A DNA stretch of 64,000 nucleotides from Pseudomonadota bacterium (lineage in GTDB: Bacteria; Pseudomonadota; Gammaproteobacteria; Burkholderiales; Ferrovaceae): positions 44,794 to 108,793 of the forward strand of contig JAKBLB010000002.1 of the NCBI GenBank assembly GCA_021832305.1, in the 5' to 3' direction. Positions within the stretch are counted from its first letter, which is position 1. Each line of letters starts with the position of its first letter. Shown here one piece after another: positions 53,410 to 60,021 of the stretch. Both the position numbers and the translations under genes were made by a program. A model generated the notes under the pieces. It had not been told where the DNA came from and searched no databases. It saw only the letters and a program-made list of their open reading frames with translations.

Positions 53410-54675
53410 ATGGAAAATAAACTGAAGAACTGTCAAGAACTTTTGAGATTCATTACTTGCGGTTCCGTGGATGATGGAAAAAGTACCCTGATCGGACGTT
53501 TGCTGCTCGACAGCCGGTCGGTACTGGCGGATCAATGGGCCGCCATCGAAGCTACCTCCACGCGCCGTGGCCAGTCTCAGGTGGATTTGTCCCTGCTGAC
53601 CGATGGACTGCAGGCGGAGCGCGAGCAAGGGATTACCATCGACGTGGCATATCGTTACTTCAGTACGCCGGCGCGCCGTTTCATCATCGCGGATACCCCG
53701 GGTCATGCCCAGTACACGCGCAACATGGTGACGGGGGCCAGCACGGCGGATTTGGCGATTCTGTTGCTGGATGTGCGCAAGGGCGTGGTGGAACAAACTC
53801 GTCGGCATGCGCAGATCGTACGCTTGCTGGGGATTCGCAAGGTGGTGATCGCCGTCAACAAGATGGATCTGGTGGCGTATGGCCAGGAGGCTTTTGAGCG
53901 GGTCAAGCAGGAATTTCTGAATTTTTCGGAACCCCTGGATTTCCGGGATATCGTTTTTATCCCGTTGAGCGCATTGAATGGCGATGGCGTAGTGCTCCAT
54001 GGGGAGCACATGCCCTGGTATGCCGGTCCAACCCTGCTTGAATTGCTGGAGACGGTGGTTCTGGACGAAGAGATTTTGAACACAAGTTTTAGATTTCCAA
54101 TTCAGTTGGTTACGAGACTTTCTGAAGAAAACGGGGAAGAGCGGCGGGGCGCGCAGGGGCGGGTGGAAAGTGGCACGGTGGCGGTGGGAGACGAGGTCCT
54201 CCTGCTGCCCTCCGGGCGAACGAGCCGTGTTTCCGCAATCGAGACCTACGCCGGACGAATTTCCCAAGCGCGGGCAGGACAGTCGATCACCCTGGTGCTG
54301 ACCGATCAGATCGATATGTCGCGTGGGGATATGATTGCCAGTGTCGCGCATCCGCCCAGGATCGGCAAAAACTTCGAAGCCCTGGTGTGCTGGTTTTCCC
54401 ACCTGCCTTATGATTCGGCACGCCGTCTCCTGATCCAGCAAACCACCCGTTGCATACAAGGCAAGATAGAGACCGTCAGCGCCCGTCTGGATATCCAGAC
54501 CTCCCAATTGATCCCCTCTCCGGCGCAGGTGACCATGAACGACCTGGTGCATATGGGGTTCAAGGTTCAGCAGCCCTTGGCTTTTGACCGCTATGAGGAC
54601 AATCGCACGACGGGCAGTTTCATCCTCGTCGATGCGCTGACCCATGATACGGTGGCGGCGGGCATGATCGTTTAA
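53410..54675 (+). CDS. cysN: Sulfate adenylyltransferase subunit 1
   Basis: TCGSVDDGKST, EREQGITID, DTPGH, NKMD, TGSFILVD. Confidence 0.95.
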   Translation: MENKLKNCQELLRFITCGSVDDGKSTLIGRLLLDSRSVLADQWAAIEATSTRRGQSQVDLSLLTDGLQAEREQGITIDVAYRYFSTPARRFIIADTPGHAQYTRNMVTGASTADLAILLLDVRKGVVEQTRRHAQIVRLLGIRKVVIAVNKMDLVAYGQEAFERVKQEFLNFSEPLDFRDIVFIPLSALNGDGVVLHGEHMPWYAGPTLLELLETVVLDEEILNTSFRFPIQLVTRLSEENGEERRGAQGRVESGTVAVGDEVLLLPSGRTSRVSAIETYAGRISQARAGQSITLVLTDQIDMSRGDMIASVAHPPRIGKNFEALVCWFSHLPYDSARRLLIQQTTRCIQGKIETVSARLDIQTSQLIPSPAQVTMNDLVHMGFKVQQPLAFDRYEDNRTTGSFILVDALTHDTVAAGMIV

Positions 54676-54745
54676 GGAAGCCTGCGCACAGCACGGCTCG
54701 AATCGAGTACCATGACAGTTGGGCCATCACCGAGGAATTTTGCTC

Positions 54746-54955
54746 ATGAAAATCGCATTCTGTGGAGGAGTTCTCGCTCTGCTGTTGTTGACGGCGTGTG
54801 AGAACACCAAGACCAAGGAGTATTACCTGGATCATCCCGATGAGATTGCTTCAGACCTTTCCGAATGCCAGAAATCGGGCAAAAATACTTACAACTGTAA
54901 CCAGGCGACTCTCGCCCAATATCAATTGAAACCCAAGGCTCCACAGACACCATGA
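54746..54955 (+). CDS. Small lipoprotein, EexN (entry exclusion)-like
   Basis: Lipobox LTAC; TKEYYLDHPDE...C...NC.QA pattern recalled as EexN-like. Confidence 0.65.
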   Translation: MKIAFCGGVLALLLLTACENTKTKEYYLDHPDEIASDLSECQKSGKNTYNCNQATLAQYQLKPKAPQTP

Positions 54956-57522
54956 GCAAGAGCGTCACCGACGCATCCCGGGAAGTGGAGTCCCTCCAGG
55001 AAGATATTTGGGCTGTGGCGAGGGAAAAACGCATGCATGAGATCATCCTGAAAATTGCCAGTGATGGTCTCCATGTTCTGGACGCCAAAGGCCTTCTGGT
55101 CACCATGAGTGACTCCTTTTGTGCGTCTTTGGGTTATGAACGCAGTGAATTGCTGGGAAAGCACATTTCCTTCTGGGATGCGTCCTTCCAGCCGGGGGCT
55201 TTTGAGGAGCGCGTGGGTTCATTGCAGGAAATGAATGACCTGACCTTTGAAAGTCAGCACCGACGCAAGAATGGTCAGGTCATCGATGTGGAAGTGCATG
55301 CGCGTGGATTTCAGGTGGAGGGAGAGGGTCTGTTGTTCTGTTCTTCCCGCGATATTTCTGCGCGCAAGCAATCCGAATCCCTGATCCGGCTTCAGGCTGG
55401 GGCCCTGAACAACAGCGTCAATGCCATTGCCATTGCCGATGCCACCTTGCCCGATTTTCCCCTGGTGTATGTCAACCCGGCTTTTGAACGGATTACGGGT
55501 TATTCGTCGGTGGAGGCCATCGGGCGCAACTGCCGCTTTCTCCAAAGGGATGATCGCGCCCAGCCGGAGTTGATGGCCGTGCGCGTCGCCCTGACGAGCG
55601 GGGTTCCCGTCAAGGCGACGGTGCGTAATTACCGCAAGGATGGCGGCATGTTCTGGAATCGTTTCCAGATTGCGCCCGTCCACGATAAAGACGGTGGATT
55701 GACTCACTTTGTGGCCATCATCAACGATGTGACCGAGCGCAAGTTATCCGATGATTACATTCGTCTGGTTTCGCAGGTATTTCTGCATGCCGACGAAAGC
55801 ATCTTCATCACGGATCCCGAGGGGCATATCATCGAGGCCAACCCGGCTTTTACGCGGACCACCGGTTACAGTCGTGCGGAGGTGCTGGGACGAACCCCCG
55901 GATTTCTTCAGTCAGGACATCACGATCCGGATTTTTTCTCCAATTTGTGGACCAAGGTTCTGGAACAGGGGCATTGGTCCGGGGAAATCTGGAATCGGCG
56001 CAAGAACGGCGAAATCTATCCGGATAAACTGACCTTGTCGGTGGTGCGCAATGAGGATGAGACCATCCTCAGTATCGTCTGCGTGTCCTCCGATATCACG
56101 GTGCTCAAGGCACACCAGAACGAATTGGAAATGATTGCGCTGCACGATGTTCTGACCGGACTACCCAACCGTGCCCTGCTCAACGATCGGCTGAGCATGG
56201 CTCTGGCCGACGCCCGCCGTTTCGGTAAAAAAATGGCCCTCTGTTTCATCGATCTGGATGGGTTCAAACCGATCAATGACCAGTTTGGTCATGACCGGGG
56301 AGATCAAGTCCTGGTGACCGTGGCCCAGCGCATGACCGCCACCCTGCGCGCCACGGATACCGTGGCGCGGTTGGGCGGCGACGAATTCGTGGTGGTATTG
56401 TCCGAGGTCAGCAACGACCAGGAATTGATCGCCACCCTGCAACGGATCATGGCTGCCATTGCCTTGCCCCATACCTTTGGGGATCAGGAAGTGGTGGTGT
56501 CTTCAAGTTTGGGCGTGACGGTTTACCCGGATGACGAGGTGGATGCCGAAACCCTTTTGCGCCATGCCGATCAGGCCATGTATCGAGCCAAGGGGAAAGG
56601 GCGCAACTGTTTTCATTTCTTCGATGTGGTCGACGAGCGTAACGCGCATCTGCGCACGGAAGGACGAACCCGGGTGGAGCAGGCTCTGGAGAGTCATGAA
56701 TTTGAACTGTATTATCAACCCAAGGTGAATCTCGGCACGGGACAAATACTGGGGGTGGAAGCCCTGATTCGCTGGAATCATCCGCAGCAGGGCGTACTGC
56801 TGCCCAAGGAATTCCTGCCCATGATAGAAAATACAGACGTTGAAACACGGATTTCCGAGTGGGTCATCGAAAGTGCCTTCAAACAACGGGAAGACTGGAA
56901 GGCCGTCGGACTGGACTTTGGGGTCAGCGTCAATCTGCCGGCCCGTCATTTGCATACGCCTGGATTTTCCGAATTCATCGGTCGGATGATGCAACGCTAT
57001 CCCACCGACCGGACCCTCAATTTTGAACTTGAAGTGCTTGAGTCCATGGCCTTGTGGGATATTCCCCAAGTCACTCAGGCCATGGAAGCCTGCCGTCGGC
57101 ATGGGGTGAGTTTTGCCATCGATGACTTTGGGACAGGGTATGCGTCGCTGGATTATCTCCGGCGTTTGCCGGTGAACGTGATCAAGATAGATCAGAGTTT
57201 CATTCGGGACATGTTGACCGATCGGGAGGATCTTGCGATCGTGGAAGTGGTGATCAACCTGGCTGAGGTGTTTCGCAAGGAGGCCATTGCGGAGGGCGTG
57301 GAGACGGAAGAGCAGGGAATTGCCCTGATTTGCCTCGGCTGTACTCAGGCCCAGGGTTTCGGTATTGCCCGACCCATGCCGGCACAGCGGGTGGCGGACT
57401 GGTGTCGACAATACCAGCCGCCCGTGTCCTGGCAGGAGGCCAGCAAAAATCGACCTGCACGGTTGACTTCCTTGCCCGACAAAATCGACTGGTCACAGTA
57501 CACCCTGAGTTCCGCACGCTGA
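54952..57522 (+). CDS. PAS-LOV-PAS-GGDEF-EAL c-di-GMP enzyme
   Basis: GRNCRFLQ (55522-55545), GGDEF with RATD I-site, EAL, DDFGTGY, KIDQSF, AEGVE. Confidence 0.93.
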   Translation: MSKSVTDASREVESLQEDIWAVAREKRMHEIILKIASDGLHVLDAKGLLVTMSDSFCASLGYERSELLGKHISFWDASFQPGAFEERVGSLQEMNDLTFESQHRRKNGQVIDVEVHARGFQVEGEGLLFCSSRDISARKQSESLIRLQAGALNNSVNAIAIADATLPDFPLVYVNPAFERITGYSSVEAIGRNCRFLQRDDRAQPELMAVRVALTSGVPVKATVRNYRKDGGMFWNRFQIAPVHDKDGGLTHFVAIINDVTERKLSDDYIRLVSQVFLHADESIFITDPEGHIIEANPAFTRTTGYSRAEVLGRTPGFLQSGHHDPDFFSNLWTKVLEQGHWSGEIWNRRKNGEIYPDKLTLSVVRNEDETILSIVCVSSDITVLKAHQNELEMIALHDVLTGLPNRALLNDRLSMALADARRFGKKMALCFIDLDGFKPINDQFGHDRGDQVLVTVAQRMTATLRATDTVARLGGDEFVVVLSEVSNDQELIATLQRIMAAIALPHTFGDQEVVVSSSLGVTVYPDDEVDAETLLRHADQAMYRAKGKGRNCFHFFDVVDERNAHLRTEGRTRVEQALESHEFELYYQPKVNLGTGQILGVEALIRWNHPQQGVLLPKEFLPMIENTDVETRISEWVIESAFKQREDWKAVGLDFGVSVNLPARHLHTPGFSEFIGRMMQRYPTDRTLNFELEVLESMALWDIPQVTQAMEACRRHGVSFAIDDFGTGYASLDYLRRLPVNVIKIDQSFIRDMLTDREDLAIVEVVINLAEVFRKEAIAEGVETEEQGIALICLGCTQAQGFGIARPMPAQRVADWCRQYQPPVSWQEASKNRPARLTSLPDKIDWSQYTLSSAR

Positions 57523-57984
57523 TCAGTGTATGGTGCCCGTGTTGCTTTCATCCGGGCCGGTCATCTCTCCTTCTTCTGCCGAGGCGGGAGAAGAACTCTC
57601 GAAAACCACGATGGTGGGACTCCCGGTGACCATGGGTGTTTTTTCTTCGGAAACGTTCAGGTGGGTCAGGACGGATTGAATCAGTTTCAGTTGAAAAATG
57701 GTGAGCGCCTGCAGAGTGGCCACCAGGACGACTGGAGAGGTCTGAGCTGAAAGGGGCGAGGTCAGGCGTGACAGGGCTTCGTCCAGGGGGACGGCAGGAT
57801 CCTGGGCACCGGTCTGCAACGGATCGCAAGCCGCAGGAGCCAGGAGGGTGGCACTCACCTGGGGAGACTGGCAATAGGGGCAGGTGACATACCCGCGCCC
57901 ACGCTGGGCTGAAAAACTCTCTTCAGAAGCAAACCAGCCTTCAAACCCATGCCCCAAAGCACACTTCAGCGAATAAAGAACCAT
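57523..57984 (-). CDS. DUF1178 family protein
   Basis: LKCALGHGFEGWFAS...CPYCQS. Confidence 0.82.
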   Translation of the reverse strand: MVLYSLKCALGHGFEGWFASEESFSAQRGRGYVTCPYCQSPQVSATLLAPAACDPLQTGAQDPAVPLDEALSRLTSPLSAQTSPVVLVATLQALTIFQLKLIQSVLTHLNVSEEKTPMVTGSPTIVVFESSSPASAEEGEMTGPDESNTGTIH

Positions 57985-58073
57985 AAACCACACACCCAGA
58001 AAATGGACTGCCCATTTTAGCACGGATTTTATGCTCTCCCTCCTGAGCAAACGGATGCACGATGGGGTCCATG

Positions 58074-59408
58074 TTAACGATGGAGATTGAGGGCGACAAT
58101 CCCTCCGTTTGGGGGAGGTGGGAACGAGACCTGAAAACAGGATCCCTGTCCCGGTGCAGACTTCACCGATATTCTGGCCCCCATGAGTTTTGTCAGGCGA
58201 CGGACGATGGACAGACCCAGGCCTGTTCCTTCTTCGGAATGGTTGATTTGATAGAACTCCCTGAATATGAGCTCCTGCTCTGTGTCGGCAATGCCCTGTC
58301 CGGTATCCGCCACATAGAGCAATGGATCTCCCTCTTGGGATGATGAAGTCGTGACATGAACTTCTCCCTGTTCGGTGAACTTGATGGCATTGTCGATCAA
58401 GTTGCGCGCGATTCGAGCCACCGCCAATTTGTCCCCGGAAATTTTGACAGGGTTGAGCGTTCGCCGAATTTTCAAACCCTTGGCAGAAGCACTCGAATCA
58501 AATTCATCGCAAATATCGGCAACAGCGGTGTCCAATGAAAACACATTCTGTTGCGTCGGGTAATTTCCCGCAGAGATTTTTGAGAGATCCAGTACGTCGG
58601 CCAGCATTCGTTCCAGATCCCGGACGATATGATCGATGTTTTTTCGGGTTTCCTGGAGGGTTTGTGCCGAAGGGTGGGAGACCAGCACGGCACCATAAAG
58701 AGACAGTGCATGAAGGGGTTGGCGCAGATCATGGCTGACGGTTGAAATGATGCGATCACGTTCCTGGCGGATCAGAACAGAGCGATAGAGCAAGCGTTCG
58801 CTTTCGGTGGCCACCCGGATCAGAAATAACCAATAAACGAGGGTCAGGCCCATAACGGCCCAACTTTTGTCCGGGTGCAGTCCTATCCAGGGGATCGTTG
58901 CGCCCAGCAATACCAGGAACGAATACGCTGCCGTCATGTATCTGGAGGAGACTGCCACGGACACCCCGGCAGCGGCAACGGAGAACAGGATGATCTCGAT
59001 CAGCGACTGGGATACGAAAGAAAGATGGCGCAGGAAGAGAACGGCGGATAAACCGGTACTGGCGCCAGCCAAGGCATCCAAAGTCATGAATGCGGCATGG
59101 AGCCGCTTCGGGTCCAGTTTGTCGACACGAGGCAGAACCCACCACGCAAGGGCAGCACGGAGCAATTCCACGCCCAGCGCCAGCGCACACCATAATATAA
59201 AGGTTGAGAGAGGTACGGACGGGTAGACGATCCAGCCCACTCCGCCAATGAAAAATAATTGAACGAGGGGCATGTGCAGCAGTACCCTTGCGTGAAGGGT
59301 CACGACCTCCCGTGTCATTTCCTGCTTCAATGGGGAGGTGGGGGGATGGTCAGTCAATGCATGATTTGGGCCGAACCATGTGCGCAGCCAGCAGGGAAAG
59401 ACACTCAT
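58074..59408 (-). CDS. Membrane sensor histidine kinase
   Basis: Several TM helices, H-box SHDLRQPL, NLIDNAIKFT, DTGQGI, GTGLGL. Confidence 0.92.
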   Translation of the reverse strand: MSVFPCWLRTWFGPNHALTDHPPTSPLKQEMTREVVTLHARVLLHMPLVQLFFIGGVGWIVYPSVPLSTFILWCALALGVELLRAALAWWVLPRVDKLDPKRLHAAFMTLDALAGASTGLSAVLFLRHLSFVSQSLIEIILFSVAAAGVSVAVSSRYMTAAYSFLVLLGATIPWIGLHPDKSWAVMGLTLVYWLFLIRVATESERLLYRSVLIRQERDRIISTVSHDLRQPLHALSLYGAVLVSHPSAQTLQETRKNIDHIVRDLERMLADVLDLSKISAGNYPTQQNVFSLDTAVADICDEFDSSASAKGLKIRRTLNPVKISGDKLAVARIARNLIDNAIKFTEQGEVHVTTSSSQEGDPLLYVADTGQGIADTEQELIFREFYQINHSEEGTGLGLSIVRRLTKLMGARISVKSAPGQGSCFQVSFPPPPNGGIVALNLHR

Positions 59409-59409
59409 T

Positions 59410-60021
59410 TCATTGGGGACGCAGGTACAAGAGGTTGGTCTTGGTGATGGCCTCGACTCGGTTCTTTACCCCGAGAATCCGAAAAAGGTCGGATATATGA
59501 TCCTTGACCGTATATTCGGAGAGGGACAGTTCCTTGGCGATCGATTTTGTGGAAAAACCGCGACTGAGGGCATACAGAACTTCACGTTGGCGGGGGGTCA
59601 GGTTGGGCAGGCCGGAGGAGAGAGGGATATCATCCTCATCATGGGGGAAAAAGAACTTCCCCTCCAGAGTATGTTTCAGGGCATCCAGAAATTCTTCGGA
59701 AGACAGACTTTTGGGAATGTAACTCATGGCCCCGGCTTCCATACAGGCACGCACGGTCGAGGGATCATCCGAACCTGAAACGATGATTACGGGCACGTCA
59801 GGGGATTCGAGTCTGATTCTTTTTAAAACGGGTAGTCCACGTTCTTGTCCGAGGTTGAGGTCGAGGAGACAGGAGGTTAGATCGGGGTGTTTCGCCAGCA
59901 TGGACAATGCGTCAACAACCGTATCTGCCTCGAAGAGCATGGCATCAGGACGGATAGAGGACAGCAACAGGCGCAACCCGTCACGAAAAAGTGCATGATC
60001 ATCCACCATGAGCACCTTCAT
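59410..60021 (-). CDS. NarL/LuxR-family response regulator
   Basis: VDDH, LLDLNL, YIPKS; LTPRQREVL...TVKDHISDLFRILGVKNR HTH. Confidence 0.93.
   Translation of the reverse strand: MKVLMVDDHALFRDGLRLLLSSIRPDAMLFEADTVVDALSMLAKHPDLTSCLLDLNLGQERGLPVLKRIRLESPDVPVIIVSGSDDPSTVRACMEAGAMSYIPKSLSSEEFLDALKHTLEGKFFFPHDEDDIPLSSGLPNLTPRQREVLYALSRGFSTKSIAKELSLSEYTVKDHISDLFRILGVKNRVEAITKTNLLYLRPQ

What the first reader, a model, noticed from the sequence alone, without database searches (positions are those of the whole stretch)
54952..57522. Blue-light LOV c-di-GMP enzyme that naturally lacks the signalling glutamine
Seen: the second PAS has GRNCRFLQ (photoadduct Cys), NYRKDG and FWN flavin-binding Asn residues. 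However, it reads HFVAIINDVT, with Ile (codon 55720-55722) where LOV domains have Gln (YtvA YFVGIQND). The third PAS resembles NifL-type redox PAS. GGDEF, the RxxD I-site and EAL motifs are intact. Established: Gln-deficient LOV receptors exist and can signal, but they are uncommon. Inference: this is a bifunctional enzyme integrating light and redox into c-di-GMP, plausibly controlling biofilm or streamer formation.
Basis: partly seen in the sequence, partly recalled or inferred. Interest (0 to 1): 0.62.

Follow-up and report, generated by a model that had tools for sequence, protein, structure and literature searches.

The report
Glutamine-less LOV light-sensor c-di-GMP enzyme
A Ferrovum (acid-mine iron oxidiser) gene encodes a probable blue-light sensor fused to domains that make and break the messenger c-di-GMP. 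Its sensor has isoleucine where a "signalling" glutamine normally sits, a variant already described in 2022, so this is a new example of a known kind.

Summary
ORF 54952-57522 (+) encodes an 856-aa PAS-LOV-PAS-GGDEF-EAL protein. The LOV domain keeps the adduct cysteine (C194) and the flavin-binding residues R195, Q198, R211, N226 and N236. Ile257 (ATC, 55720-55722) aligns without gaps to the active-site Gln of solved LOV structures.

The window comes from a Ferrovum genome. The substitution is not a one-off. Every Ferrovaceae orthologue examined, down to 60% LOV identity, has Ile (rarely Val or Met) at this position and keeps the Cys. The LOV domain and its flanking helices are among the best-conserved parts of the protein.

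On a quick tree the domain lies in a Gln-free proteobacterial LOV clade (Ile, Val, Ser, Met). Dietler et al. 2022 (PMC9098866) already reported about 350 natural Gln-deficient LOV receptors, mostly Leu or Ile. They also showed blue-light control of a Met-bearing LOV-GGDEF-EAL protein.

This scan has noted the same kind of protein three times before on other DNA.

The GGDEF, I-site and EAL motifs are intact, but which activity dominates is unknown. A redox role for PAS3 rests only on similarity to MmoS and NifL.

Verdict: real, probably functional, and a new member of a known kind. Interest is modest.

The parts
54746..54955 (+). 69-aa EexN-family lipoprotein gene whose TGA stop overlaps the ATG of the LOV gene (ATGA). 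Likely co-transcribed and translationally coupled.
   Evidence: ORF and sequence. NF033894 EexN family, 54.7 bits against a cut-off of 33. Found directly upstream of the orthologue in 13 Ferrovaceae loci.
54952..57522 (+). Whole gene: 856-aa PAS1-LOV-PAS3-GGDEF-EAL protein.
   Evidence: AlphaFold model with mean pLDDT 82.8.
55024..55356 (+). PAS1 (residues about 25-135), ligand unknown.
   Evidence: Best solved match is 3bwl, a sensor-protein PAS domain, E 1e-14. It is the least conserved sensor domain among orthologues, 59% mean identity.
55411..55731 (+). LOV domain (residues about 154-260).
   Evidence: 152 solved LOV and PAS chains match at E<=1e-5, best 3.8e-33. YtvA-family model matches residues 150-267. 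pLDDT is about 90.
55531..55533 (+). Cys194 codon (TGC), the photoadduct cysteine in GRNCRFLQ.
   Evidence: Cys is kept in all 17 orthologous loci, with synonymous TGC/TGT variation.
55720..55722 (+). Ile257 codon (ATC) at the position of the LOV active-site glutamine, on the last beta strand (model strand 250-259).
   Evidence: The orthologues have ATC or ATA (Ile) or GTC (Val), never a Gln codon.
55732..55785 (+). Helix 261-278 linking LOV to PAS3 (J-alpha-like linker after the DVTE motif).
   Evidence: Model helix H261-278. 85% mean identity among orthologues.
55786..56097 (+). PAS3 (residues about 279-382), similar to the MmoS and NifL FAD-binding PAS domains.
   Evidence: 3ewk (MmoS) E 1e-23, 2gj3 (NifL PAS1) E 1e-14. 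TIGR02938 scores 115 bits against a cut-off of 242.
56137..56607 (+). GGDEF domain (residues 396-552), with the RATD I-site (56347-56358) and GGDEF motif (56374-56388).
   Evidence: PF00990 E 4e-51. Motifs located.
56671..57375 (+). EAL domain (residues 574-808), with EALIR (56758-), NLPA, ELEVLE, DDFGTG, KID, EGVE and QGF.
   Evidence: PF00563 E 1e-64. Motifs located. 40% identical to the PA0575 GGDEF-EAL module 5m3c, E 3.8e-98.

Best explanation
The gene encodes a cytoplasmic, probably dimeric c-di-GMP turnover enzyme of Ferrovum, and its second PAS domain is a working LOV blue-light sensor of the glutamine-deficient (LOV-deltaQ) type. Inferred mechanism: blue light drives a Cys194-flavin C4a adduct. 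Without the Gln, flavin N5 protonation is passed to the beta sheet indirectly; Dietler et al. propose water molecules do this. The change then travels through helix 261-278, PAS3 and helix 383-397 to the GGDEF-EAL module, shifting the balance between c-di-GMP synthesis and hydrolysis. Shown here: the anatomy, intact cofactor and catalytic motifs, Ile at the Gln site, and family-wide conservation. Inferred: flavin binding, the photocycle, the direction of regulation, which catalytic activity dominates, and the downstream phenotype (biofilm or streamer matrix).
For: The LOV identity is clear and all flavin and adduct residues except Gln are present. Ile (1 Val, 1 Met among clustered proteins; 2 Val among family genomes) and Cys are kept in every orthologue, from 97% down to 60% LOV identity. 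The orthologue is found in 6 of 8 Ferrovaceae genera and 7 of 7 genomes of the window's own genus. The Cys codon varies synonymously, which indicates purifying selection. Among orthologues, the LOV domain (78% mean identity) and its flanking helices (92% and 85%) are more conserved than EAL (66%) and PAS1 (59%). In the YF1 receptor, all Gln123 substitutions except Pro, His, Trp, Tyr and Arg kept the light response. About 350 natural LOV-deltaQ receptors are known, mostly Leu or Ile. [quoted passage not shown] GGDEF, I-site and EAL catalytic motifs are complete. SL2, a LOV-GGDEF-EAL protein, is a light-activated phosphodiesterase (PMC8846402).
Against: There is no experimental datum for this protein or for any Ferrovum LOV; two literature searches found none. 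LOV is not adjacent to the output domains, because PAS3 lies between them, so coupling is unproven. Gln-less variants often signal more weakly (PMC9098866 abstract). Ferrovum is a chemolithotroph, and part of its habitat (mine workings) is dark. The genome has 22 GGDEF and about 16 full-length EAL matches, so the contribution of this one enzyme may be small or local.
Confidence: 0.68

Rival explanations
1. The Gln-less LOV domain works mainly as a dark redox or oxygen sensor, reading the oxidation state of its flavin. Light is at most a side input. With PAS3 it would report cellular redox state in an iron oxidiser.
For: Dietler et al. argue that Gln-independent signalling suggests descent of LOV from redox-active flavoproteins. 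In P. aeruginosa RmcA, a LOV-like, flavin-binding PAS domain that lacks the Cys is implicated in both light and phenazine/redox responses. The closest solved match to the output module here is the PA0575 GGDEF-EAL module (5m3c), which by my recollection is RmcA. PAS3 resembles the FAD-binding PAS domains of MmoS and NifL. Another Ferrovum c-di-GMP enzyme is a redox sensor.
Against: The adduct Cys is strictly conserved with synonymous codon variation in all orthologues. A pure redox sensor would not need it. Cys-less members occur only in a neighbouring clade of larger LOV proteins (P0034 has Ser, P0085 has Val).
Confidence: 0.15
2. The protein is in effect a phosphodiesterase only. The intact GGDEF domain serves as a GTP- or c-di-GMP-binding allosteric module, so the enzyme is not bifunctional, whatever the LOV domain senses.
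For: The best NCBIfam similarity is to phosphodiesterase DibA (609 bits) and DosP. The closest solved output modules are PA0575, MorA, PA0861 and DosP. The review read lists RmcA, RbdA and the E. coli heme enzyme PdeO as phosphodiesterases (PA0575 = RmcA, PA0861 = RbdA and DosP = PdeO by my recollection).
Against: All cyclase motifs are intact, including the I-site, which matters for cyclase feedback inhibition. MorA, the second-best structural relative, is labelled a tandem cyclase-phosphodiesterase. The DibA score is below the model's cut-off of 980.
Confidence: 0.4
3. The LOV domain is a decaying relic. Losing the Gln uncoupled it from the output, and it is now only a structural or dimerisation PAS module.
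For: The Gln was long considered essential. Gln replacements often weaken signalling.
Against: LOV and its linkers are more conserved than EAL and PAS1 across genera. All other flavin-pocket residues are invariant in 17 orthologues. Ile substitutions are among those compatible with signalling.
Confidence: 0.07

Closest known systems
Natural glutamine-deficient LOV receptors (LOV-deltaQ), in particular the Mesorhizobium loti LOV-deltaQ-GGDEF-EAL protein WP_140774521.1 (Dietler et al. 2022, PMC9098866)
   Same: A Cys-bearing LOV domain with all other conserved flavin residues but no active-site Gln. A hydrophobic replacement; Leu and Ile are the commonest classes in that survey. Fused to GGDEF-EAL output.
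   Different: Ile here instead of Met. The architecture is PAS-LOV-PAS-GGDEF-EAL, with a PAS domain between LOV and GGDEF. The host is a betaproteobacterial acidophile. This protein has not been tested.
SL2 of Synechococcus elongatus (LOV-GGDEF-EAL, blue-light-activated phosphodiesterase; PMC8846402 Table 1)
   Same: A LOV photosensor controlling a GGDEF-EAL tandem.
   Different: According to the review, SL2 has a canonical LOV. It has no flanking PAS domains as here.
PA0575 of Pseudomonas aeruginosa (PDB 5m3c, GGDEF-EAL; RmcA by my recollection)
   Same: Closest solved output module: 40% identity, E 3.8e-98. A multi-PAS protein. The review describes RmcA's LOV-like PASd domain as linked to flavin, and reports light and redox effects on biofilm.
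   Different: RmcA PASd lacks the adduct Cys, whereas this protein keeps the Cys and lacks the Gln. By my recollection RmcA is a periplasm-sensing membrane protein. I did not test this protein for membrane segments; the model shows only soluble PAS, GGDEF and EAL folds.
LOV-activated diguanylate cyclases (LadC, PDB 8c05; PMC10396304)
   Same: The LOV domain is 1.2e-28 similar. Both couple LOV to GGDEF through helical linkers.
   Different: In LadC, LOV is joined directly to GGDEF by a coiled coil, and there is no EAL (8c05 is a 321-aa chain named 'sensor domain-containing diguanylate cyclase').
NifL PAS1 (2gj3) and MmoS PAS-A (3ewk), FAD-binding redox PAS domains
   Same: PAS3 aligns to both over about 100 residues (E 1e-14 and 1e-23). 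It shares the W-x-G...NRRK signature.
   Different: PAS3 has Pro where NifL has Glu and MmoS has His, at the position of the LOV Cys. The functional role of that NifL residue is my recollection. FAD binding is untested.

Membership tests
LOV photosensor domain (canonical) | PAS fold with specific sequence similarity to LOV domains | tested here: met
   Best hits are solved LOV structures, E down to 3.8e-33. YtvA-family and LOV histidine-kinase NCBIfam models match residues 147-267.
LOV photosensor domain (canonical) | Adduct-forming cysteine in the GxNCRFLQ motif | tested here: met
   GRNCRFLQ at 191-198, Cys194. Conserved in all orthologues.
LOV photosensor domain (canonical) | Flavin-coordinating Arg, Gln, Arg, Asn, Asn set | tested here: met
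   R195, Q198, R211, N226 and N236 are present and invariant in 17 orthologues. Their assignment to the YtvA and AsLOV2 positions is by alignment and recollection.
LOV photosensor domain (canonical) | Active-site glutamine on the last beta strand (AsLOV2 Q513, YtvA Q123) | tested here: not met
   Ile257 aligns to that Gln in gap-free alignments.
LOV photosensor domain (canonical) | Flavin binding and a reversible 450/390 nm photocycle | not testable with these tools
   Needs purified protein.
Glutamine-deficient LOV receptors (LOV-deltaQ, Dietler 2022) | Conserved LOV residues present, active-site Gln absent, replacement within the tolerated set (not Pro, His, Trp, Tyr or Arg) | tested here: met
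   Ile257. The paper names Leu and Ile as the predominant natural replacements and gives the non-tolerated set for YF1.
Glutamine-deficient LOV receptors (LOV-deltaQ, Dietler 2022) | Listed in that paper's sequence set (Suppl. Data 3) | tested here: inconclusive
   The held copy of the supplement is a truncated, badly machine-read alignment. 'Ferrovum' does not occur in it.
Active diguanylate cyclase (GGDEF) | GG(D/E)EF active site, RxxD I-site five residues upstream, and the DxLT and ND substrate/metal motifs | tested here: met
   GGDEF 475-479, RATD 466-469, HDVLTGLPNR and KPINDQFGH are present. Enzyme activity not testable.
Active c-di-GMP phosphodiesterase (EAL) | EALxR, N, ExxE, DDFGTG, KxD, EGVE and QG motifs | tested here: met
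   EALIR 603-607, NLPA 661-664, ELEVLE 692-697, DDFGTG 724-729, KID 745-747, EGVE 781-784, QGF 801-803. Enzyme activity not testable.
NifL/MmoS-type FAD-binding redox PAS (for PAS3) | Sequence membership and a bound FAD | tested here: inconclusive
   MmoS and NifL are the top solved hits, but the NifL equivalog score of 115 is below the cut-off of 242. PAS3 has Pro at the Glu/His position. Cofactor binding not testable.
DibA phosphodiesterase (NF045675 equivalog) | Score above the curated cut-off | tested here: not met
   609 bits against a cut-off of 980.

The most novel reading that the evidence does not exclude
The Ferrovaceae protein belongs to an old, Gln-free lineage of proteobacterial LOV domains (Ile, Val or Met in Ferrovaceae c-di-GMP enzymes; Ser in hybrid kinases that sources label Methylobacter; Ala in others). 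This lineage has kept the adduct Cys for a long time. It would be a natural, evolutionarily stable alternative LOV signalling solution, perhaps a dual light-and-redox flavin sensor. In Ferrovum it would place matrix (acid streamer) production by a non-phototrophic iron oxidiser under blue-light control.
Probability: 0.2. Interest if true: 0.55.

Novelty: new member of a known kind. Interest (0 to 1): 0.3.

Why it matters
If it works as predicted, this is the only LOV photoreceptor in a 2.1-Mb genome of an acid-mine iron oxidiser, and it feeds into an unusually dense c-di-GMP network. That would give a concrete handle on whether light influences biofilm or streamer formation in acid mine drainage communities. 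For photoreceptor research it offers a natural Ile-bearing LOV-deltaQ lineage with many orthologues. That lineage is useful for testing the water-relay model of Gln-independent signalling and for studying signal passage through an intervening PAS domain. It does not change current concepts, because the principle was published in 2022.

Tried and rejected
- The whole-library representative search with the LOV domain ranked giant multi-PAS proteins first, because scores are summed over repeats. I used it only as a source of further LOV domains, not for frequency estimates.
- Residue tallies at the Gln site come from the query's own sequence neighbourhood. They are not an unbiased frequency of Gln loss among LOV domains.
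- The careful maximum-likelihood tree did not finish in 300 s. The quick tree (SH-aLRT only, 127 columns, many unresolved forks) was used, so the clade statements are provisional.
- A literature search for the NifL PAS1 residue roles (E70, W87) found nothing in the held library. Those statements are marked as recollection.
- The promoter and terminator scan of 54500-58200 gave no more sites than shuffled sequence, so it is uninformative.
- Sequencing error or a recent mutation as the cause of Ile257 is rejected. Three base changes separate ATC from CAA or CAG, and the residue is shared by all orthologues.
- A second, canonical LOV elsewhere in the genome is rejected. Only this locus matches strongly; the other hits are ordinary PAS domains at E>=9e-12.
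- The comparison of Gln and non-Gln LOV sets for co-varying positions is confounded by phylogeny and is reported only as a hint.
Full report
**1. The observation**

The + strand ORF 54952-57522 is open and encodes 856 residues.
- Pfam finds three PAS domains, one GGDEF (residues 396-552, E 4e-51) and one EAL (574-808, E 1e-64).
- NCBIfam matches the YtvA-family blue-light photoreceptor model and the LOV histidine-kinase model over residues 147-267.
- Searched against solved structures, residues 140-274 hit LOV domains almost exclusively. The best E-value is 3.8e-33, and 152 chains match at E<=1e-5.

- GRNCRFLQ at 191-198, with Cys194 = TGC at 55531-55533
- NYRKDG at 226-231
- FWN at 234-236
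- HFVAIINDVT at 252-261

Codon 55720-55722 is ATC, Ile257. In gap-free alignments it sits opposite the active-site Gln of solved LOV domains. For example, query THFVAIINDV aligns with THFVGIQSDV in 9vf7 and with THYIGYQLDV in 6hmj.

An AlphaFold model (mean pLDDT 82.8, about 90 over the LOV domain) places residue 257 in the last strand of the LOV fold, strand 250-259.

**2. Where the window comes from, and whether the substitution is a one-off**

The closest public loci are Ferrovum metagenome-assembled genomes (96% and 95% identity) and Ferrovum myxofaciens P3G (91%). More distant Ferrovaceae follow, down to 53%.

In every locus that carries the LOV domain, the Gln position is Ile. The one exception is a Val in L010. 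The Cys is always present.

The codons are ATC or ATA (Ile) or GTC (Val), never CAA or CAG. The Cys codon varies synonymously between TGC and TGT, which indicates purifying selection.

The clustered protein database gives the same picture: Ile in 25 close relatives, plus one Val and one Met.

A search of 33 Ferrovaceae genomes finds a LOV-type match at E<=1e-25 in 20 of them.
- These cover 6 of 8 genera, and 7 of 7 genomes in the window's own genus.
- The 18 orthologues with the Gln position covered have Ile (16) or Val (2) with the Cys. None has Gln.
- The second copy in G028 (L108, 58% identity) has Ser at the Gln position and keeps the Cys.
- The distant G001 match (L107, 50% identity) has Pro at the Cys position and Leu at the Gln position, so it is not a LOV domain.

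Conservation among 17 orthologues, as mean identity to the query:

| Region | Mean identity |
|---|---|
| Helix before LOV (136-153) | 92% |
| Helix after LOV (261-278) | 85% |
| LOV | 78% |
| PAS3 | 76% |
| GGDEF | 74% |
| EAL | 66% |
| PAS1 | 59% |

C194, R195, Q198, R211, N226 and N236 are invariant in these orthologues. The domain is therefore under constraint and is not decaying.

The genome holds no other LOV. The remaining hits to the LOV query are ordinary PAS domains at E>=9e-12.

**3. Wider relatives**

I collected 180 Cys-bearing LOV domains from the two protein searches and built a quick tree.
- The query falls in a clade of 25 rows with SH-aLRT support 98. Its members have Ile (19), Val (3), Ser (2) or Met (1).
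- That clade sits in a weaker group of 47 rows (support 88) with Ile, Ser, Ala, Val, Thr, Leu or Met, and no Gln.
- The Ser-bearing members are roughly 1275-aa hybrid histidine kinases. Several are labelled Methylobacter by their sources.

The tree is a short search on 127 columns, and the sample is biased toward the query. The idea of a single ancient Gln-free lineage is therefore a lead, not a result.

**4. What is known**

Dietler et al. 2022 (PMC9098866) report the following:
- The active-site Gln is generally dispensable.
- In the YF1 receptor, only Pro, His, Trp, Tyr and Arg at this position abolish the light response.
- About 350 natural LOV-deltaQ receptors exist, predominantly with Leu or Ile.

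The held supplement listing their sequences is truncated and poorly machine-read, and it does not contain the word Ferrovum. I could not establish whether this protein is already in their set.

No paper in the library links Ferrovum with a LOV domain. The only characterised Ferrovum c-di-GMP enzyme found is the hemerythrin HD-GYP redox sensor.

This scan has noted Gln-less LOV c-di-GMP enzymes three times before on other DNA, each with the same verdict.

**5. The rest of the protein**

*Output module.* It has every catalytic motif of an active cyclase and an active EAL phosphodiesterase:
- Cyclase: GGDEF 475-479, and the RATD I-site exactly five residues upstream.
- Phosphodiesterase: EALIR, NLPA, ELEVLE, DDFGTG, KID, EGVE and QGF.

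Its closest solved relatives are the GGDEF-EAL tandems of P. aeruginosa PA0575 (40% identity, E 3.8e-98), MorA and PA0861, and DosP. NCBIfam's best model is phosphodiesterase DibA, at 609 bits, below its cut-off of 980. Sequence alone cannot tell whether the enzyme is truly bifunctional or a phosphodiesterase with a regulatory GGDEF domain.

*PAS3.*
- Its best solved matches are MmoS (3ewk, E 1e-23) and NifL PAS1 (2gj3, E 1e-14). Both are FAD-binding by my recollection.
- It shares the W...WSG..NRRK pattern with them.
- It has Pro at the position that is Glu in NifL, His in MmoS and Cys in LOV.
- The NifL equivalog score is 115 against a cut-off of 242.

'NifL-like' is therefore fair as a resemblance. 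A redox function remains an inference.

*PAS1.* It matches only a structural-genomics PAS domain (3bwl), and its ligand is unknown.

*Linkers.* The model shows long helices between the domains: 136-153, 261-278, 383-397 and 562-580. This is consistent with helical signal transmission in a dimer. The relative domain placement is unreliable (pTM 0.41).

**6. Context**

A 69-aa EexN-family lipoprotein gene (54746-54955) ends in TGA overlapping the ATG of the LOV gene. The same small gene lies directly upstream of the orthologue in 13 Ferrovaceae loci. The two genes are probably co-transcribed and translationally coupled, and the meaning of the pairing is unknown.

Upstream lie two genes that look like CysD and CysN, judged by inspecting the translations without a family search. 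Downstream, on the opposite strand, lie a 175-aa ORF with no family match, a histidine kinase and a LuxR/NarL-type response regulator.

The 2.12-Mb genome has 22 GGDEF matches, about 16 full-length EAL matches, and a single PilZ match.

**7. Mechanism and rivals**

*Most likely (0.68).* A functional LOV-deltaQ blue-light sensor acts on c-di-GMP turnover through the helices and PAS3.

*Rivals.*
- A mainly redox-sensing flavin domain (0.15). The strict conservation of the Cys argues against it.
- A relic domain (0.07). The high conservation of the domain argues against it.

*Independent of the sensing question.* The enzyme may in effect be a phosphodiesterase only (0.4).

**8. Verdict**

The finding is real and accurately described. 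Gln loss is a lineage-wide trait of a kind published in 2022, so this is a new member of a known kind. Interest is 0.3.

Noticed in passing
window 54746-54955 (+); L001-L017 upstream of the match: An EexN-family lipoprotein gene (NF033894, 54.7 bits) overlaps the LOV gene start (ATGA). It is conserved directly upstream of the orthologue in 13 Ferrovaceae loci, with no conjugation genes evident nearby. This is a conserved gene pair of unknown meaning.
   Followed up: partly
P0014, P0016-P0021 (Ferrovaceae orthologues of other genera, about 1070 aa): Orthologues in other Ferrovaceae genera carry an extra N-terminal PAS domain and a C-terminal CZB (chemoreceptor zinc-binding) domain after EAL (PF13682, 40 bits in P0014). 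The window's 856-aa protein lacks both.
   Followed up: partly
whole genome G000: The c-di-GMP network is very dense for a 2.12-Mb genome: 22 GGDEF matches and about 16 full-length EAL matches. There is only one PilZ-domain match.
   Followed up: partly
window 55615-55617 (Ala222): Residue 222 lies four residues before Asn226, on the strand that carries it. It is Ala in all 17 orthologues and in 43 of 83 non-Gln LOV domains, but Val in 77 of 97 Gln-bearing LOV domains. This could be a co-adaptation of the pocket to Gln loss, but it is confounded by phylogeny.
   Followed up: partly
P0052, P0062, P0067, P0075, P0077, P0082, P0087, P0096, P0100, P0102, P0103 and others: A family of roughly 1275-aa hybrid histidine kinases, several labelled Methylobacter by their sources, has a Cys-bearing LOV domain with Ser at the Gln position (HFIGISDDVTE). 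On the quick tree it sits next to the Ferrovaceae Ile clade.
   Followed up: no
P0034, P0085 (about 1120-aa PAS...LOV-PAS-GGDEF proteins; related members P0050, P0057, P0060, P0061, P0069, P0093): A neighbouring clade of larger LOV-PAS-GGDEF proteins also lacks Gln (Ile, Val or Ser). One member (P0061) is labelled mine drainage metagenome. Two members have additionally lost the adduct Cys: GRNSRFLQ in P0034 and GRNVRFLQ in P0085.
   Followed up: no
window 57523-60021 (-): A 175-aa ORF with no NCBIfam match ends at the base next to the LOV gene's stop, in convergent orientation. Behind it lie a membrane histidine kinase (58074-59408) and a LuxR/NarL-type response regulator (59410-60021).
   Followed up: partly
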